Assembly: GCA_049322615.1 (NCBI GenBank)
Contig: JBMORX010000009.1
Coordinates: forward strand, 57,120-121,119
Length of the DNA stretch: 64,000 nt
Direction of reading: 5' to 3'
Origin: Patescibacteria group bacterium
GTDB lineage: Bacteria > Patescibacteriota > Microgenomatia > CAYGWK01
The translations under genes and the position numbers were made by a program. Below the pieces are notes generated by a model that made no database searches, was not told the DNA's origin, and saw nothing but the letters and a program-made list of their open reading frames with translations. Position 1 is the first letter of the stretch; every line of letters starts with the position of its first letter. Below, piece after piece: positions 1,122 to 44,926 of this stretch.

Positions 1122-3170
1122 TTAATTTGGTTCGATGGGTTTGAGGGTGAATCTTTTGAGTTTTTCTTGCAGAGCAGGGAACTGGTTTAATTTGTCGATA
1201 ACCGACTCGGCGGCTTGGCGGGTTTGCTTAATAAGCCCCAGGTCAGTAAACGAGGCGACTCTTAAATCGGGAAATCCGTGTTGGGCGGTGCCATAGATTT
1301 CTCCAGGACCGCGAAGTTTTAAATCGAGTTCTGCCAGCTCTGCCCCAATGTACATTTTTTCCATAGCTTTAAGACGCTGAATTGCCCTTCCTTCGGTCAC
1401 CTCGGTGAAAAGGAGACAGAAAGACTGTTTGACGCTCCGGCCTACCCTGCCCCGAAGTTGGTGAAGCTGAGCCAAACCAAATCTGTCCGCAGCCTCAATC
1501 ATCATAATCGTCGCCTGGGGAATATCGATTCCGACCTCAACCACCGGAGTTGAAACAAGAACATCAAGAGTGCCCTGGCGAAATCTGTCAATTACTTCAT
1601 CTTTTTCTTTGCTTTTTAGTCTACCGTGTAAAAGTCCAAGTTTAAGGTCCGGAAAGATTTTTTTTGAAAGATTCTCAAACTCTACCGTTGCCGCTTTAAT
1701 AGACTTTAATGTTTCGCTTTCCTCAATTAAAGGACAAATAATAAAAGCCTGCTCGCTTGTCCCTTTTACCCTTTGTCTGATCCAGTTGTAGGCAGGCTGC
1801 CTTTTTATTGGCGGCACGACCCAGGTTTTTATTCTTTGTCTTCCCGGAGGCATCTCATCAAGAACTGAAAGGTCTAAATCTCCATACAAGGTAAGAGCAA
1901 TAGTTCTCGGGATTGGGGTGGCGGTCATGGTTAAAATGTGAGGGCTGGAGCCTTTCTTGATTAGCTCTCCTCTCTGTTCTACTCCAAAGCGGTGTTGTTC
2001 ATCAATGATGACAAGCCCAAGATTTTCAAATTTAATCCCTTTTTGGATTAGGGCATGGGTGCCGATATAAACATTGGGTGGGAAGTGGGAAGTGGGAAGT
2101 GGGAAGTGTTTTTTGCTTCCAGTCAAGAGAGCGATCTTTATTCCAAAGGGAGAAAGAAGTTGGTTTAAGGTCTGGTAGTGCTGGTTTGCCAAAATTTCTG
2201 TTGGCGCCATCAGAACAGACCGGAAGCCATTAAGATAAGCAATGTAGACAGCAATAGCGGCAACCACGGTTTTTCCTGAGCCAACATCGCCTTCTAAAAG
2301 TCGATTCATGGGTTTATCAAAAGCTAGATTGGCGAGGATCTCCCGGAGAGAGCGTTTTTGAGCACCGGTTAATTCGAATGGAAGGCTGTGAATAAAATCT
2401 AAAACTTTTTCCTGATCAATAAAAAATTTATTGGAGAGGGTTTTCTTTTGCCAATCTTGTTTTCTCTTCAAGCCTGCCAGTTGGATTAAGAAAAGTTCGT
2501 CAAAGGCGAGACGATTCCTTGCCTGTTCTGCCTGGATTTTATTTTCAGGAAAGTGGATCCAGCGTAAAGCAGGTGGCAAATTGAGTAAATTATATGTTTG
2601 AGTAATCTCTTTCGGCAAAAAATCATTTATGGATGGTAATATCTGTTCGAGTAATGGAGCAATTCGGGAACGAAGCCATTTTGAGGAAACGCCATAAGTT
2701 TCTGGATATATTGGGACTAGTCGACCTGTGTGGATAGCTTTCTGTTGTCTGTCTTCTGTTATCTGTTTTCTGAGTAGTTCATACTCTGGGGAAACCATGA
2801 CAATATTTCTACCAAACCAGTCTACTTTACCCGAGAGATTATACCACTCCCCTACTTTGATAGTTTTAACTAAAAACGGCTGGTTAAACCAAACGATTTC
2901 AATTTTGTCTGTGCTGTCCGCTACTTCCGCTTTTTGAATTTTTTTGCCAGATCGGGTGTATTCGTTTTTAATTGAAAGAACCTGACCTTTAATGGTGAGC
3001 GTTTCTCCAGGCTGGACTCTTGAAATGTCGGAGACCAAAGAGAAATCTTCGTAGCGGTGAGGGAAATGATAAATTAAATCTTCAACCGTTTTTATGCCAA
3101 GCTTTGAAAGTCTTTTGGCAAAAATCGGTCCAACCATATAGAGTTTAGAAACTGGGGTAGATAAGTCCAT
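1122..3170 (-). CDS. recG: ATP-dependent DNA helicase RecG
   Basis: Walker A GDVGSGKT and DEQHRFG helicase motifs; 682 aa. Confidence 0.9.
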   Translation of the reverse strand: MDLSTPVSKLYMVGPIFAKRLSKLGIKTVEDLIYHFPHRYEDFSLVSDISRVQPGETLTIKGQVLSIKNEYTRSGKKIQKAEVADSTDKIEIVWFNQPFLVKTIKVGEWYNLSGKVDWFGRNIVMVSPEYELLRKQITEDRQQKAIHTGRLVPIYPETYGVSSKWLRSRIAPLLEQILPSINDFLPKEITQTYNLLNLPPALRWIHFPENKIQAEQARNRLAFDELFLIQLAGLKRKQDWQKKTLSNKFFIDQEKVLDFIHSLPFELTGAQKRSLREILANLAFDKPMNRLLEGDVGSGKTVVAAIAVYIAYLNGFRSVLMAPTEILANQHYQTLNQLLSPFGIKIALLTGSKKHFPLPTSHFPPNVYIGTHALIQKGIKFENLGLVIIDEQHRFGVEQRGELIKKGSSPHILTMTATPIPRTIALTLYGDLDLSVLDEMPPGRQRIKTWVVPPIKRQPAYNWIRQRVKGTSEQAFIICPLIEESETLKSIKAATVEFENLSKKIFPDLKLGLLHGRLKSKEKDEVIDRFRQGTLDVLVSTPVVEVGIDIPQATIMMIEAADRFGLAQLHQLRGRVGRSVKQSFCLLFTEVTEGRAIQRLKAMEKMYIGAELAELDLKLRGPGEIYGTAQHGFPDLRVASFTDLGLIKQTRQAAESVIDKLNQFPALQEKLKRFTLKPIEPN

Positions 3171-3354
3171 TAAACTAATTATACCACCCAGCTGAGCTGG
3201 GTATTAACCCCGCTTAGCGGGGTCAGCGAAAGATTGTGGAGAGGAACGGAAGAAATGAAGTTAGAATAAGCGCCAAAGAGGCAACAACGACAATTATCGT
3301 CCAGAGTTTTTGTTGTTTTTTAGAAATCTTCATGAATCGCTGATTAGCGCTGAT

Positions 3355-4635
3355 TTATTGCTGATTAGCGCTGATTTTCAAGAATTTTCTTTTTCCAACT
3401 TTTATAATCATTCCGTCTTTAATAGTAATTGGTAATTGGTAATTGGTAATTGGATTGCCATCTATTTCCACTGCTTTCTGTCCGACCAGCCTTTTTGCTT
3501 CGGATCTACTTGTCGCCATGCCTGTACTAACCAGAAGCCCTATTACGTTAACAGAGGATTCTGACATATTGACTACTGGGATGTTGTCAGGTATTTCTTT
3601 TCGTTGAATTTGTCTCTCAAATTTTTTTTCTGCCTGGTGGACTTCGTCTGCGGAATGATAGAGAACCGTGATGTTTCTTGCTAGAATTTTTTTAAGGTCC
3701 ATTGGATGAATATCTCCTGTTTTCCATCGACTAATGAGAGACTTAACTTGTTCAAGAGGCAAGTCTGTTGCTAATTCAAAGAAAATTGGCATCAATTCAT
3801 CAGGGATAGACATTATTTTAAAAAACATGTTTGCTGAGGAATCTAATAAGTCAACAGTATTACCAAGGCTCTTACTCATTTTTTCTTGACCATCAATTCC
3901 TGGAAGATATTTTGTTAAAATGACTTCTTCTGGACGCTGACCAAACGATTTTTGTAAGTCTCGAGTCAGGACGAAATTGAAACGTTGATCAATTCCCCCC
4001 AGCTCCACGTCTGCCTTTACAGCCACTGAGTCATACGCTTGTAAAACAGGATAGAGCATTTCATGGAAAGCCAATACTTTCCCATCCTTCACTCTTTTAG
4101 AAAAAGTTTCATGAGACATTAATTGTCCATAAGTAACTTTTGACATTAATCTAATCAATTTTTCAAGATCAAATTGGCCATACCATTCGGATTGAAGACG
4201 AATCTCGGTTTTGTCGCGATCTAAAATCTTATAAACCTGCTGGAAATATTTTTCTGCATTTCGTTGGACCTCTTCTGCGCTTAATACTTTTCTTGTTGCG
4301 CTCATACCAGAAGGGTCACCTATTCTAGCGGTGTAATCACCGATTATAAAAACGGCTACATGTCCTAATTCCTGAAATTGTTTTAATTTTCTGATTGGAA
4401 CTGCATGTCCAATATGGGCAGACCGCATAGTGGGATCAATGCCGTATTTAACTCTAAGAGGTTTTTTTTCTAGAAGACGGTCTTTTAACCCTTGTTCTGT
4501 AATTATGTCTGCAACGCCTCGTTTTAGAATTTCATTTTCTAAATCTCGCTTTTCATCTTCTTGAAAACTATTCAAACCTAATGGCTGAGTCTCTTTATTA
4601 TTGTGGGTCATTTTTTTCTTTTTGTGTTTTAACAT
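3355..4635 (-). CDS. tyrS: tyrosine--tRNA ligase with C-terminal S4-like domain
   Basis: class I HIGH (AHIGHAVP) and KMSKS (KMSKSLGN) motifs; 426 aa. Confidence 0.88.
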   Translation of the reverse strand: MLKHKKKKMTHNNKETQPLGLNSFQEDEKRDLENEILKRGVADIITEQGLKDRLLEKKPLRVKYGIDPTMRSAHIGHAVPIRKLKQFQELGHVAVFIIGDYTARIGDPSGMSATRKVLSAEEVQRNAEKYFQQVYKILDRDKTEIRLQSEWYGQFDLEKLIRLMSKVTYGQLMSHETFSKRVKDGKVLAFHEMLYPVLQAYDSVAVKADVELGGIDQRFNFVLTRDLQKSFGQRPEEVILTKYLPGIDGQEKMSKSLGNTVDLLDSSANMFFKIMSIPDELMPIFFELATDLPLEQVKSLISRWKTGDIHPMDLKKILARNITVLYHSADEVHQAEKKFERQIQRKEIPDNIPVVNMSESSVNVIGLLVSTGMATSRSEAKRLVGQKAVEIDGNPITNYQLPITIKDGMIIKVGKRKFLKISANQQ

Positions 4636-4893
4636 TTTTAACCCCCACCTATTATTATATCATTATGGGGAGGGACATTCTTCCAGCGGTAGCATTTTTG
4701 TCTCATCTCCCTGTGTTTCTACAAACTTATCTTCATAAGTTTGAATTTTCCGCAAGGATTCGAGTAATATTTTCCGTAGGCCATCTTGTATCTTTTTTTC
4801 TTTTTCCGTCTATAAGGCGATTAACATATAGTTGGAGTTTTGCATGAAGTTAATTTTTGTCTTATTTAACTTGCACTATTTCTTTCGTCTCCT

Positions 4894-5814
4894 TTATTTT
4901 GTAGCTCTTTCGATAATAGCCTCAACTTTTTCTTCGAAAGTAATGCGACCAAGAGAGCCAAATAGCTTTTCGTAGAGCCTAACTATACCCATTAAATGGC
5001 GTCTAGCTCCACCTAAAGATTTATCGCCCATAATACTTTTTGCTTGCATCAATTTTCTTGCGGCATCTTCTCCACGCCTTAACAAAATTCTATTTTCTCC
5101 AGCAACGTGAATGTACGGGGAGGCCTTTGGTCTAGTTTTGTCAAGAGTTCTTCCGGCTTCTAGATAAACAAAAGATAAATCACCACCTATCTTGTCTTTG
5201 TACTCTCTATCAAAAACTCTTTCATCAAAACCCAAATTAGTTTCGGAGGCTTGGATTATCCAACCCATCTTTACAGTCACTCCTTTATATTCTCGATACC
5301 ATTCCATATCGGCCATTTCTCTCTTCACATACTCGTGTTTATCTGTCTCAATGTTATTATAGATATGAGTGTATTCAGGGGATTGAGCAAATTCGGAAGC
5401 AAGAATTATCTCGAGATTTTCAAGACCAAAGTTTTCTCTCATTCTTGTAAGAATTTCCCTGACAGAGGCAGTTTGTCTATCAATCTCAGAATCTCTAAAA
5501 AGCTTATTGCTTTTTGCATGTGTATCAGCAATATGGTGATAAATCATTTTCATTCCCATTGTTCTTCTTATTCTTTCTGCTACAAATACCATCGCCAAAA
5601 CATCAAACGGTAAGGCTAAAGATAGTTCTCTGGCCGTACAAAGACCTGTTCCATAATAAATAGATCCACTCTCTTGTTTTACAGCCTTAGGGTTAATCCC
5701 CGCCAACGATGGAGCAACTTCAATCAATGGTTCGTTCCGGATGAGATTTTGAAAAATTTGTAACCGATCTTTTTCCTCTTGTTCGACCATAGATTGGTTT
5801 AATTCTTTTTCCAT
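4894..5814 (-). CDS. hypothetical protein, last gene of the ligase/enolase/GATase operon
   Basis: 306-aa ORF, co-directional and tightly spaced with the upstream genes; no motif recognised. Confidence 0.55.
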   Translation of the reverse strand: MEKELNQSMVEQEEKDRLQIFQNLIRNEPLIEVAPSLAGINPKAVKQESGSIYYGTGLCTARELSLALPFDVLAMVFVAERIRRTMGMKMIYHHIADTHAKSNKLFRDSEIDRQTASVREILTRMRENFGLENLEIILASEFAQSPEYTHIYNNIETDKHEYVKREMADMEWYREYKGVTVKMGWIIQASETNLGFDERVFDREYKDKIGGDLSFVYLEAGRTLDKTRPKASPYIHVAGENRILLRRGEDAARKLMQAKSIMGDKSLGGARRHLMGIVRLYEKLFGSLGRITFEEKVEAIIERATK

Positions 5815-5843
5815 TATATACTATTACTCAATTTTAATCTAAT

Positions 5844-6563
5844 TTACCTTAAGGCATTTATAAAATTAAAAAAAATCTGTTTTCTTGGTCCGTGAGAAAC
5901 GGAGAAACCTTGTCTTATTGCCAAAAAAATATCTACCCCTCGTTTTTCTAACTCTTCCCTTCTACTCTCTAAAATTTTTCTGGCTTTCTCTGGTGAAATT
6001 TCTGGATGGAACTGGATTCCCCACACAGGGTTAGTGGAGTAACGGAACGCTTGTACCTCGCAAAGCGGAGATTGTGCTAGATTTATTGCATTTTTTGGAA
6101 GAAGTGTAACCTGATCTTTATGGTATTGAAACGACCAAAATTCATCAGGCATGTTAGAGAAAAGTGGGTCAGCTTTACCATTGCTATTAAGAACAATTTT
6201 TGACCATCCTATCTCCGAATTTTCGGCTGACAACTTAACCTCACCACCTAGGATATGTGCTAAAAGTTGATGCCCTAGGCAGATCCCTAATACTGCTTTG
6301 TCTTTGGCTATCATATCGGCTATAAAATCAGCTTCTTTTTTAAGATAGTCATATTGTGGTAAGTGCATTTCGTACACACCCATCGACCCACCACTTATAA
6401 TTACCGCCTCAAAGTCAGAATTCGAAGGCACTTCTTCGCCAAGATGTACTCTTGAAATTTCCCCTCTTCCTCCGGCTGGTTTAATTAGCTCTTTTATGCC
6501 TTCTGCGCGTCTTTCAGCATTCTCAATAATTAGAGTTCGTATTTGCTCTTTCATAAGTTCCAA
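5844..6563 (-). CDS. class I glutamine amidotransferase-like protein (peptidase C26 / gamma-glutamyl hydrolase-like)
   Basis: GICLGHQLL catalytic Cys motif; stand-alone 239-aa GATase1. Confidence 0.75.
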   Translation of the reverse strand: MELMKEQIRTLIIENAERRAEGIKELIKPAGGRGEISRVHLGEEVPSNSDFEAVIISGGSMGVYEMHLPQYDYLKKEADFIADMIAKDKAVLGICLGHQLLAHILGGEVKLSAENSEIGWSKIVLNSNGKADPLFSNMPDEFWSFQYHKDQVTLLPKNAINLAQSPLCEVQAFRYSTNPVWGIQFHPEISPEKARKILESRREELEKRGVDIFLAIRQGFSVSHGPRKQIFFNFINALR

Positions 6564-7852
6564 TCAGGTTTTCGACCTGTTCTTCGCAAATAACTGGCAG
6601 GATAATTTTCATTAGGCTTAAGATGAATCTTCAAAAATTTGCCATCTTTTCCTAGGCGAATCCGCCGGTATTCTTCTTGAGGATTTCGAATAGTAAACTT
6701 TTCAATTTTTTTCCAATCCGGGCGGATACCAAGACCTTTTCCTCGTATAGGTAGAAAATTTTTAGTCTGCGGATCGAAAAGAAATTTCTCTTTAATCAGA
6801 TGTTTCTCATCACGAAACCAATCTGTTGAGGGTTCCCAACCATCACCCGGTAGAGTAGTTGTTGCTAAAGTAGCGGCTGCTTGTTGGTCATAGGCCCGAC
6901 CGATAGCTGTAGGAAAAGTCCCCCCCACCATATTTTTAGTTTTTTCCTGAGTCATCGGAAGAATAGCTTTTTCAATCTCTTGGGCATGATAAAGCCCCCC
7001 CACTTTATGTATCTTAAAATTTAAAGAAAGATTAGCTTTTGTGCACTCAACTGCATTTTTTAAGGTGACAAATGATTCATCTGCCATTACCGGTGTTTCA
7101 TATCCGTATTGTCTTAGTGCTTCTTTGGCAAAAACAAGCCCTTCAATATTGCTCTCTTCTTTTGTGGGTTGTTCCATGAAAAGGAGAGAAGAAAGATTGA
7201 CCCCCATTTTTTTTAAAATCAAAACCAATTCTTTAAATTCTTCCGGTTCGTATCGAGCATTGAAATCAAGAACGAAAGGAATTTGTTTCTCACAAGATAA
7301 CAATGCTACAGCTTTAATTGTTGCAGTATCTTCCTCTTTTGTTTTACCAACTTTAGGTTTAGGAATAAAACCATGTTGAAATTTTCCTTCAACTTCAGCA
7401 ATTAGTAATGCTGTCTCGCTTTGAAAAGAAATACTGGCAAGCGCTTGCCCCCCCAGCCTTTTCTGTCCATACATTTCTAAAATTGACTTTTCATCCATTT
7501 GACCATAAAGGTCATCTAAGGCCATATTTAAAGCAGTGAAAGCAGCTGGAAATCGTTCAAGCAAAGCCCTTCTTAGAGCCTTATCAGTTAGTATACTTTC
7601 TCTTTCTTCAACATTTCTCCCCTCAATTTCTAGTCGTGATAAGGCCCAATATATATCCCAAGCGTCGTAGGTGGAGAAGGGGAAGTCAATACTGGCTTCG
7701 CCGATTCCCTCCATCATTCCAGATTCATCTAAGGCCTTGATTATGAACAATACCCGTGGTAGTTTTTCTAATGCCCCGAATCCTAAAGGGAATGGCCGTT
7801 CCAGATCAATTCCAAGAAGGTATGGTTTAGTTTCTAAAATTTCGTAGCGCAT
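6551..7852 (-). CDS. enolase-superfamily enzyme (mandelate racemase / muconate lactonizing / dipeptide epimerase-like)
   Basis: KPKVGK, LDFNARY, FMEQP, PVMADES and KIHKVGG blocks match MR/MLE metal-ligand regions; 13-nt overlap with the next gene. Confidence 0.75.
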   Translation of the reverse strand: MRYEILETKPYLLGIDLERPFPLGFGALEKLPRVLFIIKALDESGMMEGIGEASIDFPFSTYDAWDIYWALSRLEIEGRNVEERESILTDKALRRALLERFPAAFTALNMALDDLYGQMDEKSILEMYGQKRLGGQALASISFQSETALLIAEVEGKFQHGFIPKPKVGKTKEEDTATIKAVALLSCEKQIPFVLDFNARYEPEEFKELVLILKKMGVNLSSLLFMEQPTKEESNIEGLVFAKEALRQYGYETPVMADESFVTLKNAVECTKANLSLNFKIHKVGGLYHAQEIEKAILPMTQEKTKNMVGGTFPTAIGRAYDQQAAATLATTTLPGDGWEPSTDWFRDEKHLIKEKFLFDPQTKNFLPIRGKGLGIRPDWKKIEKFTIRNPQEEYRRIRLGKDGKFLKIHLKPNENYPASYLRRTGRKPDWNL

Positions 7853-9316
7853 TTATTGGTATAATCCCTTTATCTCTTCTAACGCCAACGCTAATGATTT
7901 TTTTCTGGGGAGACCTTTTTTTTGGAAGCGATAAAACTTTTCTGCTAATTGATCAGACAGTGATCCTGTCATAAGTCTTTTTTCTAAAGTAGTAAGATAC
8001 TCTTCATATTGTTCTTCAGGGATTTCAAGCCAAGCGAGACCTTCTCTTGCCCTGTTTATTTGTCTTGCTAAGATATCTCTGGTTGTTTCTTTTTTTAGCT
8101 CGTTATCGACAAAATCCCACATTTCTCCCCAAAGCCCATGAATCATTACTGAATTTCTATTTTCTTCAATTAAAGATAGGTTAAGTAGCGACTCATTTTC
8201 CTTTTGTGACCAGGCAAGCCTTCCTACATAAAACAGAATCATCCCAATATTTTCAAAAACTGTTGATTGCATCGATGTTGGTCTAAACTCAATTACAGCA
8301 GAATTATCTTTAAACTTAACCCTAACATCTCTCCAATTGAGACCGGTAGCGATGGCTAAAGAATTTTCAGGGGAATAAAGAATAAAAGGATATGCTGCCA
8401 TTCTCTGAAAGTAATCTCTTAGGTCCTTATAGTAGATCCCAGGGAGTCCAATCCTTGTAATTGCTCCTTTTTCGGCTTCTTCAATGGTTCGCGTATCGTG
8501 ACTTATCTCCCAAACCATCATTCTAAGCTCTGATAATCCGGTGTCCTTATTACTCAAAAATCTAGCATTGCCTCCTAATGCCATAGCGAATGGAACTATG
8601 ATGAACGATCTATTAAGTTTATCTACCGCGTCTTCAAAATTTTTTGCTTCTAAGTTAACCTGCATAGCATTGCAAACTGCAACCACAGCAGCGTCTCGCA
8701 CGTCTACCTGCTCTTTTGTGCCAATTATAGTATTAAGACCCCATCTTTTATTTTCGTTATGAAAGTTGGGAACAAGGACATATTTTTCCCTAGTTGACCT
8801 TTTAATTTTGTGGATCTCAACAAAAGGATTCGTACCACAGCTTATAGTTAAAAGGTTTCTCTTACGAGTAGCTGCTAGCATGAGGTTTACCCGCGAGCCT
8901 AGTTCATCCTCGAGTACGTTCACACCGCTACCTAAAATATCTATCGGGTCAGTCCGTAGTTCCATCTGGAAAGCCCCTAATTCTACATCCGCAAGTTTAT
9001 ATTTATCAGATCTTCCCTCGTTTAATTCATTCATAATTACATCTCTTGCGCTTTCAGGAGCCTGGCTTAGGTCTTCTTGTAAGAAGGAGTACTCCATTTC
9101 CAACCCTATTTTTACAACCTTCTCCGTTTTTCTATATTTATCTGGATTATTGAGTATTTCTTGGTATTGATCGTAATAAGCCCGACGCATCTCATCTTCT
9201 CTCTTTTCTCTTTCAGTCAATTTAGACATAAGTGGTAAGACCCATTTATCTTTATCTTTTTCTATCATATTTCTTCTTTTCAAAATATCCGCCTTATACT
9301 TATAGCGGATAGTCAA
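7853..9316 (-). CDS. glutamate--cysteine ligase family 2-like carboxylate-amine ligase
   Basis: IGLEMEYSF block typical of the GCS2/YbdK family; its start codon abuts the stop of the next gene. Confidence 0.6.
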   Translation of the reverse strand: MTIRYKYKADILKRRNMIEKDKDKWVLPLMSKLTEREKREDEMRRAYYDQYQEILNNPDKYRKTEKVVKIGLEMEYSFLQEDLSQAPESARDVIMNELNEGRSDKYKLADVELGAFQMELRTDPIDILGSGVNVLEDELGSRVNLMLAATRKRNLLTISCGTNPFVEIHKIKRSTREKYVLVPNFHNENKRWGLNTIIGTKEQVDVRDAAVVAVCNAMQVNLEAKNFEDAVDKLNRSFIIVPFAMALGGNARFLSNKDTGLSELRMMVWEISHDTRTIEEAEKGAITRIGLPGIYYKDLRDYFQRMAAYPFILYSPENSLAIATGLNWRDVRVKFKDNSAVIEFRPTSMQSTVFENIGMILFYVGRLAWSQKENESLLNLSLIEENRNSVMIHGLWGEMWDFVDNELKKETTRDILARQINRAREGLAWLEIPEEQYEEYLTTLEKRLMTGSLSDQLAEKFYRFQKKGLPRKKSLALALEEIKGLYQ

Positions 9317-9412
9317 TGTAGATATTATTATAACTTACAATGTCAATTTTTTCACAATTGACATTGAGCCGACCACAACGAGAAAGCTAGCCAGCCCCAG
9401 ACTAGGTTGAAC

Positions 9413-9784
9413 TCAATCGCGTCTAGTTTTCTCAATTCTTCTATAAAAATTTAACATATCGGGCTTACTATTTCGAAGATGAGGAGGCGCTGTTTCTTCG
9501 CTCCCAAAATATGGAGGGTAGTTTTCCACCCCTACTCCGTCGTACAGAAGGTTTTTTTCGTCTCTTATAATTATCCTTATGAAGGTGTGTGTTAATCCTG
9601 GAGATATCTCGGCTTCTCTCGCCTCACATTTAATAGGTAGATTTTGCTCTGAGATAAGTCTCTCAATTTCGTTAATTGTAATTGAGGTCCAAACTCTACA
9701 AAACCCTTTCCGACATGCCTCAGAAACTGATTTGTTTTGCGAAAGGTATTCCGGTAAGGAAGACATAAGTCTCTCAGAAATCAT
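9413..9784 (-). CDS. hypothetical protein
   Basis: ORF track only. Confidence 0.35.
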   Translation of the reverse strand: MISERLMSSLPEYLSQNKSVSEACRKGFCRVWTSITINEIERLISEQNLPIKCEAREAEISPGLTHTFIRIIIRDEKNLLYDGVGVENYPPYFGSEETAPPHLRNSKPDMLNFYRRIEKTRRD

Positions 9785-10174
9785 TTACTTTTAATTTGAA
9801 AGACAAAAGAGTCAAATTTGCTCATTTCTTGAGTTATCCAGCTGAGTTCTGGGCACAAAATGGCTACATGATTTCTGGAGACTTGGTTTAGATGATACTG
9901 AACATATTCTACCTTCAACTAAAGAGGGAGGACCTTCAATGGCTCCAGGGGCGTCTATTTTAGCGATTAAAGACTTTGAAGGAGCACCTTTTGATATAAG
10001 GCAAAGACCCCACGACTCACTATGGCAACCAGGAACAATCTGACTTTCTACGTTTGTAGCCATGTTGGCTCATATTATAGTGTTTCTCTTAAGAAATGTC
10101 AAATCAATCAATCAAAGAATTATTTTGACCTTGCTTGTTTTACACTAGGACTAACTCTATTATATAATTCAAGT

Positions 10175-12775
10175 ATGTCTTGGAAAAGGATTTGGAAAAG
10201 AAGAATTTCCCAACTTGGGGCTTATGCTTCACCTTCTCCTTACCGGCGGATTTCTGGGATCAGATTTATCTCAAATCTTTCCCTTTTAGGCTTTCTGGCA
10301 ATTGTTATCCTGACTTTTATCACCGCTTTTCTCTTTATTTGGTACGCCAAGGATTTACCAAGACCAGATAAGATTGTCCGCCGAGAAGGATTTTCCACCA
10401 AGATTTATGATCGCCAGGAGAATCTTCTATATGATGTTTTCAGTACCCAACGCCGGACGCCGGTTGAACTTTCCGAAGTTCCTTTATATCTGAGGGAGGC
10501 GACAATTGCCATTGAAGATAAAGATTTCTATAAACATCAAGGCTTTGATCCTAAAGGTTGGCTTAGGGCAGTCTACAACATCTTTATCCATCGCAAACTT
10601 CAAGGAGGTTCAACTTTAACTCAGCAATTGGTGAAAAATGTTTTACTTTCCTCTGAACGGACCCTGACCCGGAAAATTAAAGAATTTATTTTAGCAGTCC
10701 AGATTGAGAGAAAATATACTAAAGATCAAATTTTACAAATGTATTTAAATGAAGCCCCCTATGGTGGGACAGCCTGGGGGGTTGAGGCTGCCGCCGAGGT
10801 TTATTTTGGAAAGAAAGTTTCCCAACTAACGCTTGTTGAGTCAGCTATTTTAGCCGGTCTACCGCAGCGACCATCGCTTTATTCTCCCTTTGGTCAGGAT
10901 AAAGAAAGCTATAAATGGCGAACCGAGCAGGTTTTGCGCCGAATGAGAGAAGATGGATATATCTCCCGTGAACTTGAAATTGCTGCCAAAAAAGAGATCG
11001 CTAAAGTTGAGTTTGCCCCAAAAGGAACAAGTTTTAAGGCTCCCCATTTTGTCATGTATGTTAAAAAATTACTTGAAGAACGCTACGGCGAGAGGATGGT
11101 TGAACAGGGAGGACTTAAAGTGGTGACTACTTTGGACCTCGATCTTCAAGAAAAAGCCCAAGTTGCGGTATCAGAAGAGATTACTAAAGTGGAAAAACTC
11201 CATATAACAAATGGAGCAGCCTTGGTTTTAGACCCCAAAACCGGAGAGATTCTCGCCATGGTAGGCTCAAAAAACTATGATGATCCAAATTATGATGGCA
11301 AAGTTAATGTCACTTTATCTTTGCGTCAACCTGGTTCAGCCATAAAGCCAGTTACTTATGCGACTGCTTTTAAAAAAGGCTATACTCCTTCAGCCCTTCT
11401 TATGGATGTTAAGACTTCATTTCCTGGAGGAGATAAGCCGGAGTATATTCCGGAAAATTATGATGGTAAATTTCATGGTCAGCTTCAGGTTAGATATGCT
11501 CTTGGTAGTTCAATTAATGTCCCGGCAGTTAAAATGCTGGCTCGGGTTGGACTTCGAGATATGCTTGAGCAAGCCTATGATATGGGATTTACCACTCTTG
11601 AGCCTTCCCAGGAGAACCTTTCTCGTTTAGGTTTATCGGTAACGCTGGGAGGGGGAGAAGTCAGGCTTTTGGATATGGTCTCTGCATACTCTGCTTTTGC
11701 TAATGGAGGATTGAAGGTGATGCCAACGGCGATTTTGAAGGTAACAGATCATTCGGGTAAAGTTTTAGAAGAAGGCAAACCCATTCAAGGTCGAAAGGTC
11801 TTGACCCCAGAGCAGGCATATCTTATCTCAAACATTCTTTCCGATAATGAAGCAAGATTAATTACTTTTGGTTCAAGGTCTTCTCTTTATTTTGAGAATA
11901 GACAAGTAGCGGTTAAGACCGGAACCACTAATGATAAAAAGGATAACTGGACGGTAGGTTGGACCCCAAGTGTTATTGTTGGCGTCTGGGTTGGTAATAA
12001 TGATAATTCTCAAATGAAAGAGGTTGCCTCTGGAGTCTCGGGTGCCTCGCCAATTTGGCGAAGAATTTTATCTACTGCTTTAGAAGGAAAGCCGAAAGAA
12101 GATTTTCCAGTCCCCCAAGGGATCGTCAGTGCCGAGGTAGATAGTGTTTCTGGCTACCGAGCCCATGATGGTTTTCCTTCCCGAGTCGAATATTTTATCA
12201 AAGGCACCGAGCCAACAGGCGAGGATCCGGTGCATGTCAAACTTAAGGTTTGTAAAGCTTCGGGAAAGTTGGCAACTCCAGTTGATATTGCCCGAGGTGA
12301 TTATGAGGAAAAGGAATATTTCGTCTTTAAAGAGGATGATCCGACTGTTGCTCCTGGCGGGGAAAATAAGTGGCAAAAAGGAATTGATGAGTGGTTGGCG
12401 ACTCAATCTGATTCTCGCTACCACCCACCAACTGACTATTGCGAATCGCAAAATCAGATTGAGGTAAGAATAAAAGAGCCAGAAGACCACGCTCAAGTTG
12501 GTTCAAGTTTTAGAGTTAAAGTTGAGCCAGTTTCCTTAAACGAGATTGTTTTGGTTGAGATTTATGTCAACGGAGAAAATAAAGCAAGCATGACCAGTAT
12601 CCCTTATGAGCGCGATTTTACCCTGCCTGACGGAATTTACACCATTAAAGCTCGGGTTCGTGATAGCAAAGGAAACGAAGGCGAAAGAGAAATAAAAATT
12701 GGGGTCAATGTTCCCTGGGATTGGTCTCCTTCGCCCACGCCTACTCCAACCCTTTCCCCCACCCCAACTCCGTAA
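10175..12775 (+). CDS. mrcA: class A penicillin-binding protein (transglycosylase + transpeptidase) with a C-terminal Ig-like extension and PT-rich tail
   Basis: GT51 motifs EDKDFYKHQGFD and GGSTLTQQ; TP motifs SGSAIKP, SIN and KTGTT. Start moved to ATG 10175 (MSWKRIW, TM helix follows); SPSPTPTPTLSPTPTP tail. Confidence 0.88.
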   Translation: MSWKRIWKRRISQLGAYASPSPYRRISGIRFISNLSLLGFLAIVILTFITAFLFIWYAKDLPRPDKIVRREGFSTKIYDRQENLLYDVFSTQRRTPVELSEVPLYLREATIAIEDKDFYKHQGFDPKGWLRAVYNIFIHRKLQGGSTLTQQLVKNVLLSSERTLTRKIKEFILAVQIERKYTKDQILQMYLNEAPYGGTAWGVEAAAEVYFGKKVSQLTLVESAILAGLPQRPSLYSPFGQDKESYKWRTEQVLRRMREDGYISRELEIAAKKEIAKVEFAPKGTSFKAPHFVMYVKKLLEERYGERMVEQGGLKVVTTLDLDLQEKAQVAVSEEITKVEKLHITNGAALVLDPKTGEILAMVGSKNYDDPNYDGKVNVTLSLRQPGSAIKPVTYATAFKKGYTPSALLMDVKTSFPGGDKPEYIPENYDGKFHGQLQVRYALGSSINVPAVKMLARVGLRDMLEQAYDMGFTTLEPSQENLSRLGLSVTLGGGEVRLLDMVSAYSAFANGGLKVMPTAILKVTDHSGKVLEEGKPIQGRKVLTPEQAYLISNILSDNEARLITFGSRSSLYFENRQVAVKTGTTNDKKDNWTVGWTPSVIVGVWVGNNDNSQMKEVASGVSGASPIWRRILSTALEGKPKEDFPVPQGIVSAEVDSVSGYRAHDGFPSRVEYFIKGTEPTGEDPVHVKLKVCKASGKLATPVDIARGDYEEKEYFVFKEDDPTVAPGGENKWQKGIDEWLATQSDSRYHPPTDYCESQNQIEVRIKEPEDHAQVGSSFRVKVEPVSLNEIVLVEIYVNGENKASMTSIPYERDFTLPDGIYTIKARVRDSKGNEGEREIKIGVNVPWDWSPSPTPTPTLSPTPTP

Positions 12776-12805
12776 TAGTTTGTATTAGTCTGATGTCTTG
12801 ATTTT

Positions 12806-13219
12806 TTGAGGGAAAATGGTACAATTTTTCGGCAAATATTTTATTTTAATAGAATGAGTATAAGCAAAGAACGCCTCCCAAGGTTGCCAAAAGGATTGCG
12901 TGTCTACATCCGGCAGGTTAAAGCCGGGGCACGAAAAACAGGGGAAGACTGGGGAGACAAGGCTCTTCCAGAACTTTGTCTTTCGGATCTTTTAACACTT
13001 GTCCGACGAAGTGGTCAGGGAACTCAACGTTTCAAAGAGGCGATTGCAGCTGTTTTCACTGATACCGATAATTTGGATTCATTGATGAGGCTCCTTGAGG
13101 TTTCTCAAGAATTTGGTTTTCCGACCAGCTCAAACAATCATGCTCTTTTTGAAGCCACCCAGCGGGCGGTGATAAGGCAAATAGGTGAGCTTAGGAAGAA
13201 AAAGCCTCAAGAAGCCTAA
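12806..13219 (+). CDS. hypothetical protein
   Basis: ORF track; start may be the internal Met at 12854. Confidence 0.35.
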   Translation: MRENGTIFRQIFYFNRMSISKERLPRLPKGLRVYIRQVKAGARKTGEDWGDKALPELCLSDLLTLVRRSGQGTQRFKEAIAAVFTDTDNLDSLMRLLEVSQEFGFPTSSNNHALFEATQRAVIRQIGELRKKKPQEA

Positions 13220-15330
13220 AGAGTTTTAAGAATAGCGCCAAATTTGCTTTTTACTGCGGAAATTATTTTTTCTCTTATTTTCTCTACCTCTTTATCGGTC
13301 AAAGTTTTCTTAGGGTGCTGATAGATAATTCTGAAAGTTCGAGTGTCTCCATGAATATCGATTAATTCAACACTTTGAATAATTGAACTAGACACTTTAA
13401 TTAATTGAAGTAGATCTCCAATTAAAGTCTTTGGTGGAACAACAAAAGCCAAATCCTCAACAATAGCAGGATATTTGGGAATGGGGGTAAAGGTTTTAGT
13501 TTTTTTGGCAAGTAAAATTAAAGCTTCAAAATCAAGGTCAAGAACAACCGTTTTGTTTAAAATTTCGAAATTTGCCAAAACCCGAGGGTTGACTTCACCA
13601 ATTGTTCCTAAGACATTATTGGTCGTTTCCATAACCGCTGCTTTTCCCTGGCTAAAATAGGGCTCTCTTCCTACCCAAGGCTTAAAATGGATATCCTCAA
13701 TTCCCAAATGCTCGAAAATAATCTCCGAGATGCCCTTTAAGTAGGAAAAGTCTTCCCCAGTTACCAAACAAGTAAGTCTGGTTTTTTCCAGAGGGAGATT
13801 TCCTTTTTGGGGAAGATAAACATTAGCCATCTCAAAAATTTTCACTTTGGGAAAATTGGCTTGGTTTTGGGCGACTGTTTTAAGCAGACTCTCAAGAAGG
13901 GAAATCCTTAAGTATTCAAGATCGCTGGTGAGCGGGTTTTTGAGTTTAAGATGGTCTTCGGTCTTTAGTCCAGTTTTTTGAATTGAGTCTTTTCCGATGA
14001 AGGAATAATTGTAAACTTCGGAGAAGCCTTTGCCAACAAGCACCTCTTTAATTTTATTCTCATATTCAAAGAACATCCCTATTTTTCCTTTTTGAGGTTG
14101 AGGTTGGGGTAAAAGACCGAACAAAGGATGAAGCGGAGGAATATTGCCGGGAAGTCTAAAGTAGCCATAGATTCTGGCGATTTCCTCAATTAAGTCTTCT
14201 TCGTGAGATATGTCTTGGGCGCGAAAGCTTGGAACGGAGAAAGTGAGAAGTGCCGTGCGTCGCCAGAGGCTACTCGCCGTTGCGTAGCCACGCTTTGGCG
14301 GAGCGCGGTGCCGGCGGCGCGAGAAATGAGAAGTGAGAAGTGAGAAGCCAAGAGATTCAAGGATACTGATGATTTTATTCTTTGGAATTTCGATGCCGAT
14401 GATTTTATTGACTAAATCAAGATCCAGTTTGATTTTTTTGCTTTTTTGGGGATTAGGATAAATATCTATTAATTTACTGGCGACCCTTCCTTGGCAGAGG
14501 TCTTCCATTAGCTTTACTCCTTGAGAAATGACAGGAATAATTCCTTCTAAATCAATCCCTCTTTCAAATCTCACCGCTGCCTCGGTCCGGTGAGCCAGAG
14601 CCATCGACGTCTGTCTGATTCTGACGGGATTATAAGCCTGAACGAAGAAAAGGACTCTTTTAGTGTTTTCGTCTATTTGGCTATTTTCCGCACCCATGAT
14701 ACCGCAAAGATCAATTAATCTTTCTTTTCCATCCTCGATAACGATATCTCCACCTGGAAGGGTCCGGGTAGCCCCATCGAGAGTGGTAATTTTTTCTCCT
14801 GGTCGTGACAGCCTCATAATCATTTTTGCCCCAAGAATTTTGTCGTAATCAAAAGTATGGATTGGTTGTCCGGTTTCGATCATTAAATAATTGGAAATAT
14901 CAACCACATTGGAAAGTGGTCTGATGCCAACTTTTTCTAATCTCTCAGCCATCCATTTTGGAGAAGGGGCAACCTTTACCTGGTCGATAACGACAGCAGA
15001 AAACCGAGGACAGAGAGTCTCATCTTTGATTTCTACGGAAAGATTAAATTTTGGATTTTTCATCTCTAGAGGAAGAATCTTGGGTGATGCAAATTCCGCT
15101 TTTATACCGTATCCTGAAAGAGCCGCCGCCGCTTCCCGGGCGATGCCGCGAACCGATAAACAATCATAGCGATTGACAGTTATCTCGATTTCCAAAATCT
15201 GGTCATCTTTTTCCGAATGGATTTTTTCCACTGATTGGCTACAAAGAGAAAGAACTTCAGCCACCTTCTCTGGGCTTGCTTCAGTTTTAAGAAAGTCTTT
15301 CAACCAAGAAAAAGGAATAAGAATATTCAT
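13216..15330 (-). CDS. pheT: phenylalanine--tRNA ligase beta subunit carrying an in-frame 37-aa insertion encoded by a GC-rich repeat
   Basis: B3/B4, B5 and FDX-ACB-like blocks; lies downstream of pheS; insertion at 14237-14348. Confidence 0.88.
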   Translation of the reverse strand: MNILIPFSWLKDFLKTEASPEKVAEVLSLCSQSVEKIHSEKDDQILEIEITVNRYDCLSVRGIAREAAAALSGYGIKAEFASPKILPLEMKNPKFNLSVEIKDETLCPRFSAVVIDQVKVAPSPKWMAERLEKVGIRPLSNVVDISNYLMIETGQPIHTFDYDKILGAKMIMRLSRPGEKITTLDGATRTLPGGDIVIEDGKERLIDLCGIMGAENSQIDENTKRVLFFVQAYNPVRIRQTSMALAHRTEAAVRFERGIDLEGIIPVISQGVKLMEDLCQGRVASKLIDIYPNPQKSKKIKLDLDLVNKIIGIEIPKNKIISILESLGFSLLTSHFSRRRHRAPPKRGYATASSLWRRTALLTFSVPSFRAQDISHEEDLIEEIARIYGYFRLPGNIPPLHPLFGLLPQPQPQKGKIGMFFEYENKIKEVLVGKGFSEVYNYSFIGKDSIQKTGLKTEDHLKLKNPLTSDLEYLRISLLESLLKTVAQNQANFPKVKIFEMANVYLPQKGNLPLEKTRLTCLVTGEDFSYLKGISEIIFEHLGIEDIHFKPWVGREPYFSQGKAAVMETTNNVLGTIGEVNPRVLANFEILNKTVVLDLDFEALILLAKKTKTFTPIPKYPAIVEDLAFVVPPKTLIGDLLQLIKVSSSIIQSVELIDIHGDTRTFRIIYQHPKKTLTDKEVEKIREKIISAVKSKFGAILKTL
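14237..14348. repeat. GC-rich 74-nt hairpin core flanked by GAGAAGT/GGGAAGT heptamers, in frame in pheT
   Basis: core gtgccgtgcgtcgccagaggctactcgccgttgcgtagccacgctttggcggagcgcggtgccggcggcgcgag matches 56210-56312 exactly by eye; nested palindrome GGCTAC..GTAGCC. Confidence 0.85.
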
Positions 15331-44767: not shown

Positions 44768-44851
44768 TGGCGGAATCGGTATACGCGCAACACTTAAAAT
44801 GTTGTGGGTGTAAAATCACCCATGAGGGTTCGAGTCCCTCCTGGCCCACCA
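44761..44851 (+). tRNA. tRNA-Leu(TAA) with encoded CCA
   Basis: acceptor GGGCTAG/CTGGCCC, anticodon loop CTTAAAA, long variable arm, T loop TTCGAGT. Confidence 0.8.
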
Positions 44852-44852
44852 T

Positions 44853-44926
44853 CGGGGAGTAGCTCAGTTGGTTTAGAGTGCGCGCTTTGGGAGCGTGAGG
44901 CCGGCGGTTCGAATCCGCCCTCCCCG
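44853..44926 (+). tRNA. tRNA-Pro(TGG)
   Basis: acceptor CGGGGAG/CTCCCCG, anticodon loop TTTGGGA, T loop TTCGAAT. Confidence 0.8.

What the first reader, a model, noticed from the sequence alone, without database searches (positions are those of the whole stretch)
4894..9316. Operon of GCS2-like carboxylate-amine ligase, enolase-superfamily enzyme, class I GATase-like hydrolase and an unknown 306-aa protein
Four co-directional genes have overlapping or abutting boundaries (7852/7853; 6551-6563). A gamma-glutamyl-type ligase, an MR/MLE-type epimerase or cycloisomerase (as in L-Ala-D/L-Glu epimerases) and a C26-type gamma-glutamyl hydrolase together suggest metabolism of a gamma-glutamyl or dipeptide compound. 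This could be murein-peptide recycling or synthesis of a small modified amino-acid metabolite. The organism otherwise looks metabolically minimal. The unknown fourth protein (4894..5814) has no recognisable motif.
Basis: inference. Interest (0 to 1): 0.55.

Follow-up and report, generated by a model that had tools for sequence, protein, structure and literature searches.

The report
Tyrosyl-tRNA synthetase operon with stereo-inversion enzymes
The four genes are a real operon, but it also includes the neighbouring tyrosyl-tRNA synthetase gene, and its "unknown" protein is an undescribed, catalytically remodelled copy of that synthetase that in many ultra-small bacteria and archaea sits beside, or is fused to, the true synthetase and beside enzymes that flip amino acids between L and D forms.

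Summary
Four abutting or overlapping minus-strand genes encode a GCS2-type ligase, an enolase-superfamily enzyme with all catalytic residues, a stand-alone class I GATase/C26 hydrolase with an intact triad, and a 306-aa protein.

The interpretation needs revision.
- The unit extends to tyrS (3355..4635). TyrX lies beside or near TyrRS in 22 loci, and it is fused to TyrRS in both orders and with both bacterial-type and archaeal-type enzymes.
- TyrX's other partners are interchangeable stereo-inversion sets: ligase + NSAR-like racemase + GATase (here); GNAT-fold acyltransferase + NSAR-like racemase + VanX-like peptidase (Saccharibacteria); or a single Asp/Glu-type racemase (DPANN archaea). YbaK-like deacylases, a DAO-family oxidoreductase and HisC-like aminotransferases also occur.

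Best reading (inferred, untested): an acylate, epimerise, deacylate shunt, probably acting on tyrosine, coupled to a TyrRS-associated pseudo-synthetase, possibly a D-Tyr checkpoint. Murein-peptide recycling is not supported. I found no description of the family. Interest is high.

The parts
9327..9355 (-). Promoter-like site (GTGAAA-17-TATAAT) just upstream of the ligase gene
   Evidence: Consensus scan, 10 of 12 matches; sequence read. Consensus match only, not shown to be functional.
7853..9316 (-). GCS2-type carboxylate-amine ligase. The maximal ORF is 487 aa from a TTG; the probable start is the ATG at 9268, giving the 471 aa of the NCBI record.
   Evidence: PF04107 E=0.0065 and NCBIfam PRK13515 E=1.9e-8. 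Precomputed PF04107 on this protein and all 50 homologues. Weak match to plant glutamate-cysteine ligase 6gmo/2gwc over the core.
6551..7852 (-). Enolase-superfamily (MLE subgroup, NSAR/OSBS-like) racemase or epimerase, with a family-specific ~55-aa C-terminal extension ending in WNL
   Evidence: MR_MLE_C E=1.9e-10. Best NCBIfam match menC_lowGC_arch E=4e-16. Best PDB hit 1wue E=2e-11. K165/K167, D196, E227, D258, K280 and D337 are invariant in 15 homologues.
5844..6563 (-). Stand-alone class I glutamine-amidotransferase-fold / C26-type hydrolase
   Evidence: PF00117 E=1.7e-25, PF07722 E=2.2e-8. PRK09065 E=1e-40. C95, H186 and E188 are invariant in 7 orthologues.
4894..5814 (-). 'TyrX': a class Ic aminoacyl-tRNA-synthetase-fold protein (TyrRS-like) without HIGH or KMSKS
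4636..4893 (-). 258-nt spacer between TyrX and tyrS. It contains an AT-rich -10-like 'GATATAAT'. No T-box or other Rfam element was found.
   Evidence: Sequence; Rfam E-value scan of 3000-10500 found nothing relevant. In L042/L043 this spacer is absent and the two genes are fused.
3355..4635 (-). Bacterial-type tyrosyl-tRNA synthetase with HIGH, KMSKS and an S4-like C-terminus; the fifth member of the conserved unit
   Evidence: TIGR00234 tyrS E=1e-95, 321 bits against a cutoff of 113.8. Adjacent, near or fused to TyrX in 22 loci.

Best explanation
The window carries a five-gene, tyrS-centred operon: ligase, enolase-type racemase, GATase-type hydrolase, TyrX and TyrRS.

Shown here:
- All five genes are present and conserved together.
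- The racemase and the hydrolase keep complete catalytic residue sets.
- TyrX has a TyrRS fold without the two ATP-activation signatures.
- TyrX is repeatedly fused to TyrRS.

Inferred, step 1. The first three enzymes form an acylation-dependent stereo-inversion shunt. The ATP-dependent GCS2-type ligase puts a gamma-glutamyl (or similar carboxy-acyl) group on the alpha-amino group of an amino acid, most likely tyrosine. The two-lysine, Mg-dependent NSAR-like enzyme inverts C-alpha of the residue that carries the free carboxylate. The Cys-His-Glu hydrolase then removes the acyl group stereoselectively. This is the logic of the Geobacillus N-succinyl-amino-acid racemase pathway, with ATP/glutamate in place of succinyl-CoA.

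Inferred, step 2. TyrX keeps the amino-acid-binding and ribose-binding elements ('IADTHA', 'GxDER') but not HIGH or KMSKS. It therefore probably binds tyrosyl-adenylate or the tyrosyl-A76 end of tRNA(Tyr) made by TyrRS, rather than activating tyrosine itself. It would work with TyrRS in cis or in trans. The most plausible role is a chirality checkpoint that rejects or hydrolyses D-Tyr species, while the shunt interconverts D- and L-Tyr.

The direction of the shunt (D to L salvage, or L to D production with self-protection) is not resolved.
For: Operon and conservation.

Competent enzymes:
- Racemase: KxK, D/E/D metal ligands, second Lys and the PGD motif are invariant. Its nearest relatives are NSAR/OSBS enzymes.
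- Hydrolase: triad invariant.

TyrX fold and motifs.

TyrX-TyrRS coupling:
- Adjacent or near in 22 loci, in several gene orders.
- Fusions in both orders and with three kinds of TyrRS: L009/P0171 (TyrRS-TyrX), P0172, P0202 (archaeal-type TyrRS) and P0288.
- L042/L043 show the window's exact gene order with the last two genes fused, in two independent samples.

Interchangeable stereo-inversion partners next to TyrX:
- GCS2 + ENO + GATase in 10 loci.
- An Asp/Glu-type amino-acid racemase (TIGR00035, 147-166 bits, above the cutoff of 93) overlapping TyrX, in 10 loci (9 labelled DPANN archaea plus one Kaiserbacteria MAG), 7 of them with an Lrp/AsnC regulator.

Other partners:
- YbaK-like aminoacyl-tRNA editing domain between or next to TyrX and TyrRS in 3 loci.
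- DAO-family FAD oxidoreductase and an aromatic amino-acid ammonia-lyase/aminomutase.
- HisC-like aminotransferases in 2 loci.
- Prephenate dehydratase in 4 loci.

Precedents: the NSAR D-amino-acid conversion operons (Sakai 2006, cited in PMC12006748) and TyrZ as a D-Tyr-selective second TyrRS (PMC9437257).
Against: - No substrate was identified for any enzyme. 'Tyrosine' rests only on linkage to tyrS and on aromatic-amino-acid neighbours.
- The residues that read the tyrosine hydroxyl in TyrRS are not clearly kept in TyrX. Q188 and E191 vary in DPANN members. The sequence-level alignment to TyrRS is not significant (hhalign probability 1.8-17%), so the motif mapping is tentative.
- If TyrX were itself the deacylase, the YbaK-like domain in three loci would seem redundant.
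- From my own knowledge, characterised M15 peptidases release or act on D-residues. This argues for L to D in the Saccharibacteria variant, whereas the DAO and aminotransferase neighbours argue for D to L.
- Whether these genomes lack DTD could not be tested. None was found in the 617 kb of sequence held, which is uninformative.
- In most DPANN loci tyrS is not adjacent to TyrX.
Confidence: 0.45

Rival explanations
1. TyrX is a non-catalytic, HisZ-like or Leishmania-like pseudo-subunit. It would bind tyrosine and/or pair with TyrRS as a pseudo-dimer partner. Its role would be to sense tyrosine and regulate TyrRS or the tyrosine-supplying enzymes (racemase, shunt, aminotransferase), with no chemistry of its own.
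For: - HIGH and KMSKS are lost.
- HisZ is a precedent for a synthetase paralogue serving as a regulatory subunit.
- TyrX overlaps the racemase or ligase genes, which suggests stoichiometric complexes.
Against: - 19 invariant residues across bacteria and archaea include many acid/base side chains (D71, D97, D169, K182, E198, D202, R242). That looks more like an active site than a sensor.
- TyrX is of archaeal/eukaryal TyrRS fold type, yet it pairs with bacterial-type TyrRS that already homodimerises.
Confidence: 0.2
2. TyrX is a tRNA-dependent aminoacyl transferase, working like a cyclodipeptide synthase or a Fem enzyme. It would take Tyr from Tyr-tRNA(Tyr) made by the linked (sometimes second) TyrRS to build a small Tyr-containing peptide or metabolite. 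The ligase, epimerase and hydrolase would then tailor that product.
For: - A second tyrS copy is present in L005/L014 and L019.
- The GNAT-fold S397 protein resembles FemX and an aminoacyl-tRNA-dependent peptide synthase.
- P0173/L044 is a GNAT (Acetyltransf_6)-TyrX fusion in a polysaccharide cluster.
Against: - There is no match to any Pfam model, so none to a CDPS model.
- In DPANN the only constant partner is a plain racemase plus an Lrp regulator, not a biosynthetic cluster.
- No export or tailoring genes are conserved.
- The operon sits among translation genes: YchF, EF-Tu and the S10 operon.
Confidence: 0.15
3. The ligase, epimerase and hydrolase handle a murein-type dipeptide (L-Ala-D/L-Glu) or supply D-Glu or D-Ala for peptidoglycan. 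Linkage to tyrS and TyrX would be inherited synteny without shared function.
For: - Weak NCBIfam matches to L-Ala-D/L-Glu epimerases (E=1.5e-9) and PDB 1jpm/3jva.
- A PBP1-type gene lies nearby in the window (10022..12775) and in L018/L019.
- The Saccharibacteria variant uses a VanX-like dipeptidase.
Against: - The full set occurs in a MAG labelled Nanobdellati archaeon (L022; label not verified). TyrX plus a racemase occurs in many DPANN archaea, which by general knowledge lack murein.
- Gene order around TyrX varies (TyrRS-GCS2-TyrX-ENO-GAT versus GCS2-ENO-GAT-TyrX-TyrRS), and TyrX overlaps GCS2. That is not passive synteny.
- TyrX-TyrRS fusions sit inside the same operon.
- No murein-recycling genes (amidases, LD-carboxypeptidase, Mpl) are conserved nearby.
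Confidence: 0.1

Closest known systems
N-succinylamino-acid racemase 'D-amino acid conversion' operons (Geobacillus kaustophilus; Sakai et al. 2006, cited in PMC12006748)
   Same: Three-step logic: N-acylate the amino acid, racemise with an NSAR/OSBS-type enolase-superfamily enzyme that has two catalytic lysines, then deacylate stereoselectively. The Saccharibacteria variant even uses a GNAT-fold acyltransferase as its first enzyme.
   Different: - Here the acylating enzyme is an ATP-dependent GCS2-type ligase and the deacylase is a class I GATase/C26 hydrolase (or a VanX-like M15 peptidase), not, from my own knowledge, an M20 desuccinylase.
- The racemase is only about 20-25% identical to known NSARs and has a unique C-terminal extension.
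- The operon is tied to tyrS and a TyrRS paralogue.
- No activity has been measured.
Double-length pseudo-dimeric TyrRS of trypanosomatids (Larson et al. 2011; PDB 3p0h)
   Different: - TyrX is an ancient, separate family, about 14% identical to any TyrRS, not a recent duplicate.
- It is usually a separate gene.
- It pairs an archaeal/eukaryal-type fold with bacterial-type TyrRS.
- It keeps many invariant polar residues.
- It is linked to racemisation enzymes.
Cyclodipeptide synthases (CDPS)
   Same: Class Ic synthetase fold without ATP-activation motifs. CDPSs act on the product of a synthetase (aminoacyl-tRNA) rather than activating amino acids.
   Different: - No match to any Pfam model, CDPS included.
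- TyrX is larger and has a C-terminal helical domain.
- The genomic context is different.
HisZ (HisRS paralogue, regulatory subunit of HisG)
   Same: A synthetase paralogue without aminoacylation activity that is recruited to amino-acid metabolism and encoded with its partner enzymes (PMC9437257).
   Different: HisZ is class II and regulates a biosynthetic enzyme. TyrX is class I and is fused to the synthetase itself.
D-aminoacyl-tRNA deacylase (DTD) and B. subtilis TyrZ
   Same: Functional analogy only. These are devices that keep D-Tyr out of translation, and TyrZ is a second, more L-selective TyrRS. Some TyrX loci also carry two tyrS copies.
   Different: There is no sequence or fold relationship to DTD. 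A D-Tyr role for TyrX is inferred from gene neighbours only.
L-Ala-D/L-Glu epimerase murein-peptide pathways (YcjG/YkfB)
   Same: An enolase-superfamily epimerase acts on an N-acylated amino acid together with peptidases.
   Different: The match is weaker than to NSAR/OSBS enzymes. No murein-recycling neighbours are conserved. The system is present in archaea.

Membership tests
Class Ic aminoacyl-tRNA synthetase (TyrRS) - for the 306-aa protein | Rossmann-type class I catalytic-domain fold of TyrRS/TrpRS | tested here: met
Class Ic aminoacyl-tRNA synthetase (TyrRS) - for the 306-aa protein | HIGH signature | tested here: not met
   No HIGH-like tetrapeptide in 56 or in 33 aligned members. The equivalent stretch reads 'xSxG LPFD'.
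Class Ic aminoacyl-tRNA synthetase (TyrRS) - for the 306-aa protein | KMSKS signature | tested here: not met
   The equivalent loop reads 'GRT(F/L)D..RPKASPY'.
Class Ic aminoacyl-tRNA synthetase (TyrRS) - for the 306-aa protein | Match to tyrS/trpS profiles above the curated cutoff | tested here: not met
   Only PRK08560 at E=0.009, 15 bits against a cutoff of 220. No PF00579 hit.
Cyclodipeptide synthase | Match to a CDPS profile, or closest fold match to CDPS | tested here: not met
GCS2 / YbdK carboxylate-amine ligase - for 7853..9316 | PF04107 or NCBIfam carboxylate-amine ligase profile match | tested here: inconclusive
   My own scan gave 16.3 bits against a gathering score of 21, and PRK13515 at E=1.9e-8 is far below its cutoff. 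However, PF04107 is the precomputed hit for this protein and all 50 homologues.
GCS2 / YbdK carboxylate-amine ligase - for 7853..9316 | ATP-dependent ligation of a carboxylate (glutamate gamma-carboxyl) to an amine | not testable with these tools
   Needs an enzyme assay.
Enolase superfamily, MLE subgroup (NSAR/OSBS-like) - for 6551..7852 | MR_MLE C-terminal barrel domain | tested here: met
   PF13378, 41.3 bits against a cutoff of 29.4.
Enolase superfamily, MLE subgroup (NSAR/OSBS-like) - for 6551..7852 | KxK motif, second catalytic Lys and the D/E/D metal ligands | tested here: met
   K165, K167, D196, E227, D258 and K280 are invariant in 15 sequences from both operon variants.
Enolase superfamily, MLE subgroup (NSAR/OSBS-like) - for 6551..7852 | Equivalog-level match to OSBS, NSAR or dipeptide epimerase | tested here: not met
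   The best match is TIGR01928 at 58.9 bits against a cutoff of 200.65. L-Ala-D/L-Glu epimerase scores 37.5 against 500. It is a distinct subfamily.
Enolase superfamily, MLE subgroup (NSAR/OSBS-like) - for 6551..7852 | Racemase activity on N-acyl amino acids | not testable with these tools
   Needs an enzyme assay.
Class I glutamine amidotransferase / peptidase C26 - for 5844..6563 | PF00117/PF07722 match and Cys-His-Glu triad | tested here: met
   90.2 bits against a cutoff of 22.8, and 34.6 against 20.5. C95, H186 and E188 are invariant.
N-acyl-amino-acid racemase conversion pathway (Sakai 2006 type) | Co-encoded acylating enzyme, NSAR-type racemase and deacylase | tested here: met
   The three roles are filled in 10 loci of the window's type and 6 of the GNAT/M15 type. 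The enzyme families for steps 1 and 3 differ from the described pathway.
N-acyl-amino-acid racemase conversion pathway (Sakai 2006 type) | Demonstrated net D/L conversion of a free amino acid | not testable with these tools
   Needs reconstitution.

The most novel reading that the evidence does not exclude
TyrX is a new kind of translational chirality checkpoint. It would be an editing-type module built from a TyrRS catalytic domain that works in cis (when fused) or in trans with TyrRS. It would reject or hydrolyse D-tyrosyl-adenylate or D-Tyr-tRNA(Tyr) in ultra-small bacteria and archaea. The released D-Tyr would be recycled by an ATP-driven gamma-glutamyl stereo-inversion shunt, or by a simple racemase in DPANN. 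TyrRS, long regarded as a synthetase without an editing domain, would then have one in these lineages.
Probability: 0.25. Interest if true: 0.88.

Novelty: new variant of a known kind. Interest (0 to 1): 0.72.

Why it matters
If this reading is right, it matters for three reasons.
- It defines a sizeable, unannotated family of synthetase-derived proteins (536 clusters at 50% identity). The family is concentrated in the two great radiations of ultra-small symbionts (CPR/Patescibacteria and DPANN) and is physically tied to TyrRS. A 2022 review of synthetase duplications and paralogues lists no such TyrRS-like protein.
- It extends the 'acylate, racemise, deacylate' strategy for inverting amino-acid chirality to a gamma-glutamyl/ATP-driven version. 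Organisms with little acyl-CoA metabolism could run such a version.
- It gives testable access to how organisms that scavenge all their amino acids cope with D-tyrosine, the classic stereochemical weak point of translation.

Even if the D-Tyr idea is wrong, the repeated independent fusions make TyrX a clear target for aaRS biochemistry.

Tried and rejected
- T-box or other RNA leader in the 258-nt TyrX-tyrS spacer or upstream of the ligase: no Rfam match, only a chance lncRNA hit at E=0.75.
- Direct sequence evidence for TyrX: phmmer against PDB sequences found only chance hits. Profile-profile alignment with TyrRS is not significant (probability 17% and 1.8%). Homology therefore rests on the fold.
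- Sequence-profile search of the Saccharibacteria 397-aa protein against PDB sequences found nothing. Its GNAT fold came only from the structure prediction.
- Whether operon-linked TyrRSs form a separate clade from 'second' copies: a neighbour-joining tree is suggestive but not clean, because L007 and L023 break the pattern. I did not use it.
- Search for DTD in the window and all fetched loci (617 kb): none found, which is uninformative at this coverage.
- Literature searches for this family or operon found no description. The 'pseudo-dimer' query was swamped by unrelated chemistry papers.
- The afdb50 fold library was unavailable. The Larson 2011 paper is not held.
- TyrRS-inhibitor biosynthesis with a resistance tyrS copy was considered and set aside. 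There are no biosynthetic or export genes, and the operon lies in a translation-gene neighbourhood.
- A GATase + TyrX glutamine-dependent amidotransferase pair (GMP-synthase-like) was considered and rated unlikely. The GATase is replaced by a metallopeptidase in the sister variant and is absent in DPANN.

Full report
**1. The observation**

The window comes from an NCBI metagenome-assembled genome labelled 'Patescibacteria group bacterium' (locus tags ACOZBZ_03415 to _03430).
- The ligase stop and the enolase start abut at 7853/7852.
- The enolase and GATase genes overlap by 13 nt (6551-6563).
- The 306-aa gene follows after 29 nt.
- The ligase ORF as listed starts at a TTG (9316). The database record is 471 aa long, so the ATG at 9268 is the likelier start. 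It sits about 60 nt downstream of a -35/-10-like site at 9355..9327.
- No credible terminator interrupts the unit.

**2. The three recognisable enzymes**

*Ligase.* In my own scan it matches GCS2/GCS only weakly (E about 0.005, below the gathering score). It matches NCBIfam 'carboxylate-amine ligase' at E=1.9e-8. PF04107 is the precomputed hit on this protein and on all 50 homologues found. I accept 'GCS2-type ligase' at superfamily level only.

*Enolase-superfamily protein.* This assignment is solid.
- MR_MLE_C scores above its cutoff.
- The nearest solved relatives are the OSBS/NSAR-group proteins 1wue and 1wuf, ahead of dipeptide epimerases.
- In an alignment of 15 orthologues from two operon variants, every catalytic element of the MLE subgroup is invariant: K165-x-K167, metal ligands D196/E227/D258, second base K280, and the 'PGD' aspartate D337.
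- It reaches no equivalog cutoff and carries a private ~55-residue C-terminal tail. It is therefore a new subfamily with the machinery for 1,1-proton transfer.

*GATase-fold protein.* It is a stand-alone class I amidotransferase/C26-type protein with an invariant Cys95-His186-Glu188 triad.

**3. The 'unknown' protein (TyrX)**

- No Pfam model matches it. The only hint was a 15-bit match to archaeal-type TyrRS over residues 93-157.
- The family is large but entirely unannotated. The word-indexed search found 175 hits. An exhaustive profile search found 536 clusters at 50% identity, 228 of them below 1e-30.
- With a 56-sequence alignment, AlphaFold2 gave a confident model (pLDDT 93.2, pTM 0.91).
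- It lacks both class I signatures. The HIGH position reads 'xSxG-LPFD' and the KMSKS loop reads 'GRT(F/L)D..RPKASPY'.
- It keeps 'IADTHA' (TyrRS 'LADLHA', whose Asp binds the amino group of the substrate; established knowledge of TyrRS). It also keeps 'G-F-D-E-R', which aligns with TyrRS 'GG-x-D-Q-R', the ribose-binding element. This mapping is tentative, because the profile-profile alignment is not significant on its own.
- Nineteen residues are invariant from CPR bacteria to DPANN archaea: G55 G57 P69 D71 A96 D97 A100 S140 Y162 D169 K182 G184 W185 E198 D202 G221 P233 Y234 R242.
- Inference: TyrX binds an aminoacyl-adenosine moiety (an adenylate, or the 3' end of charged tRNA) but does not activate amino acids.

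**4. The operon has a fifth gene**

The next gene downstream (4635..3355) is a canonical bacterial TyrRS (TIGR00234, 321 bits). I collected 44 loci carrying TyrX relatives, some of them duplicates, and made a census with phmmer and BLAST clustering.
- TyrRS is adjacent to, or within a few genes of, TyrX in 22 distinct loci.
- The arrangements differ: GCS2-ENO-GAT-TyrX-TyrRS as here; TyrRS-GCS2-TyrX-ENO-GAT in Uhrbacteria and Berkelbacteria, with TyrX overlapping GCS2 by 4 nt; and divergent TyrRS/TyrX in L007.
- TyrX and TyrRS are fused into one polypeptide in at least five lineages and in both orders:
  - TyrRS-TyrX (L009 and P0171).
  - TyrX-TyrRS (P0172).
  - TyrX joined to an archaeal-type TyrRS (P0202).
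  - TyrX-TyrRS in a high-GC organism (P0288).
- P0172 sits in L042/L043, recovered from two unrelated samples. Its gene order is GCS2, MR_MLE, GATase, [TyrX-TyrRS], YchF, aminotransferase, EF-Tu, S10 operon. That is the window's operon with its last two genes joined. This excludes passive synteny and argues for a physical or functional TyrX-TyrRS partnership.
- Some genomes (Berkelbacteria L005/L014; L019) carry a second tyrS a few kilobases away.

**5. What else travels with TyrX**

The other conserved partners share one activity: changing or sensing amino-acid configuration.
- *Type A (10 loci, including the window and one MAG labelled Nanobdellati archaeon).* GCS2 ligase + NSAR-like enzyme + GATase.
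- *Type B (6 loci, mainly Saccharibacteria).* Three components:
  - A clearer OSBS/NSAR-like enzyme (TIGR01928 E=4e-37).
  - A VanX-like M15 metallopeptidase that keeps the SHxxGxAiD and E..WH zinc and catalytic motifs.
- *Type C (10 loci: 9 labelled DPANN archaea plus one Kaiserbacteria MAG).* TyrX is overlapped by an Asp/Glu-type cofactor-independent amino-acid racemase (TIGR00035, 147-166 bits against a cutoff of 93). In 7 of these loci an Lrp/AsnC regulator is encoded divergently upstream.
- *Further partners:*
  - A YbaK-like aminoacyl-tRNA editing domain between TyrX and TyrRS (L010, L020) or across from the fusion (L040/L041).
  - A DAO-family FAD oxidoreductase. Its best NCBIfam match is D-amino-acid dehydrogenase, but below the cutoff.
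  - An MIO-type aromatic amino-acid ammonia-lyase/aminomutase.
  - HisC-like aminotransferases in L037 and L042.
  - Prephenate dehydratase in four loci, and YchF in at least eight (also L042/L043).
- Identical 'longest contig' lengths link at least 9 of the 50 ligase homologues and about 25 of the 83 GNAT-like homologues to TyrX hits (my manual comparison of the tables).

**6. Mechanism**

Enolase-superfamily racemases act on substrates whose amino group is acylated and whose free carboxylate binds the metal. Examples are NSAR and the dipeptide epimerases (established knowledge; review context in PMC12006748). [quoted passage not shown] 2006 (cited). Types A and B are two non-homologous solutions for steps 1 and 3 around homologous racemases, and Type C replaces all three with a direct racemase. 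This strongly suggests that the trio's net function is inversion of a free amino acid.

The steps for the window's operon would be:
1. The ligase makes gamma-Glu-X, with ATP.
2. The racemase epimerises X.
3. The Cys-His-Glu hydrolase releases X.

All three steps are inferred.

That X is tyrosine, or an aromatic amino acid, is inferred from the tyrS/TyrX linkage and from the aromatic-pathway neighbours.

The direction is open. By general knowledge, M15 peptidases act on D-residues, which points to L to D. The DAO-type oxidoreductase plus aminotransferase neighbours form the classical D to L route.

For TyrX, three facts fit a role at the TyrRS product level in handling D-Tyr: the probable retention of adenylate/A76-binding elements, the fusion to TyrRS, and the company of racemising enzymes and YbaK-type deacylases. 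D-Tyr is the known stereochemical weak point of TyrRS, and B. subtilis answers it with the selective paralogue TyrZ (PMC9437257). I rate the whole picture at about 0.45, and the specific 'TyrX is a chiral editing module' reading at about 0.25.

**7. Rivals**

- TyrX as a CDPS/Fem-like Tyr-tRNA-dependent transferase in a small-molecule pathway: 0.15.
It is weakened by the archaeal distribution, by the variable gene orders with overlaps, and by the lack of murein-recycling neighbours.

**8. Novelty**

Seven full-text searches found no description of this family or operon (one search retrieved only the NSAR precedent). The 2022 review of synthetase duplications and synthetase-like proteins lists only TyrZ and fused TyrRSs for TyrRS, and it leaves the 'aaRS-like' column empty.

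The parts belong to known superfamilies, and the logic resembles a known pathway. I therefore call it a new variant of a known kind. The TyrX family itself is a new member of the class of synthetase-derived proteins. The evidence is entirely computational, and no substrate is established.

Noticed in passing
window 36446-42554: A low-GC stretch (0.32-0.36 against about 0.40 elsewhere). It encodes a NYN-domain protein, an N6/N4 DNA methylase, five ORFs with no Pfam match and a DUF3800 protein. It is probably an acquired restriction-modification or defence island.
   Followed up: partly
window 43539-45498: A dense array of 10 tRNA genes (Leu x3, Val, Phe, Gly x2, Pro, Arg, His). It coincides with the local GC maximum (0.467).
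   Followed up: no
window 9413-9784 (minus strand): A 123-aa ORF directly upstream of the operon with no family match. A weak homologue (E=2e-6) lies near the TyrX cluster in L007 (15451-15771).
   Followed up: no
L005/L014 (Berkelbacteria) 5266-6570 and 12728-13930; L019 4857-5807 and 5820-7013: Two tyrS copies lie within a few kilobases. In L019 the copy next to TyrX is truncated (316 aa) and lacks the C-terminal S4-like domain.
   Followed up: partly
L003, L005/L014, L008, L013: A prephenate dehydratase (PDT + ACT) gene lies next to the TyrX/tyrS cluster in four distinct CPR loci. These organisms are expected to lack aromatic amino-acid biosynthesis.
   Followed up: no
L001, L004, L006, L008, L011, L013, L015, L017, L042: The translation-associated ATPase YchF is a conserved neighbour of the cluster. 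In L042 the cluster sits immediately upstream of EF-Tu and the S10 ribosomal-protein operon.
   Followed up: partly
L044 8001-9746 (P0173): In a high-GC bacterium, TyrX is fused to an Acetyltransf_6 (FemAB-like GNAT) domain. It lies inside an exopolysaccharide-type cluster with three more Acetyltransf_6 genes. This context differs from all the others.
   Followed up: no
L040 5762-7195: An IS66-family transposase sits directly upstream of the GATase gene that precedes the archaeal TyrX-TyrRS fusion. It may have displaced the ligase and racemase genes. SET-domain, PIN/VapB and Y1 transposase genes lie nearby.
   Followed up: no
L006, L007, L019, L023, L024, L025, L029 (record titles): Several third-party-annotated (TPA) MAG records that carry typical CPR/DPANN-type TyrX loci are labelled Gammaproteobacteria, Pseudomonadales or Methanosarcinales. 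These are probably taxonomic mislabels or mis-binned contigs.
   Followed up: no
window 10022-12775 (+): A 917-aa class A penicillin-binding protein (PBP1-type) is encoded divergently from the operon region. Homologues also lie near TyrX in L018 and L019.
   Followed up: no
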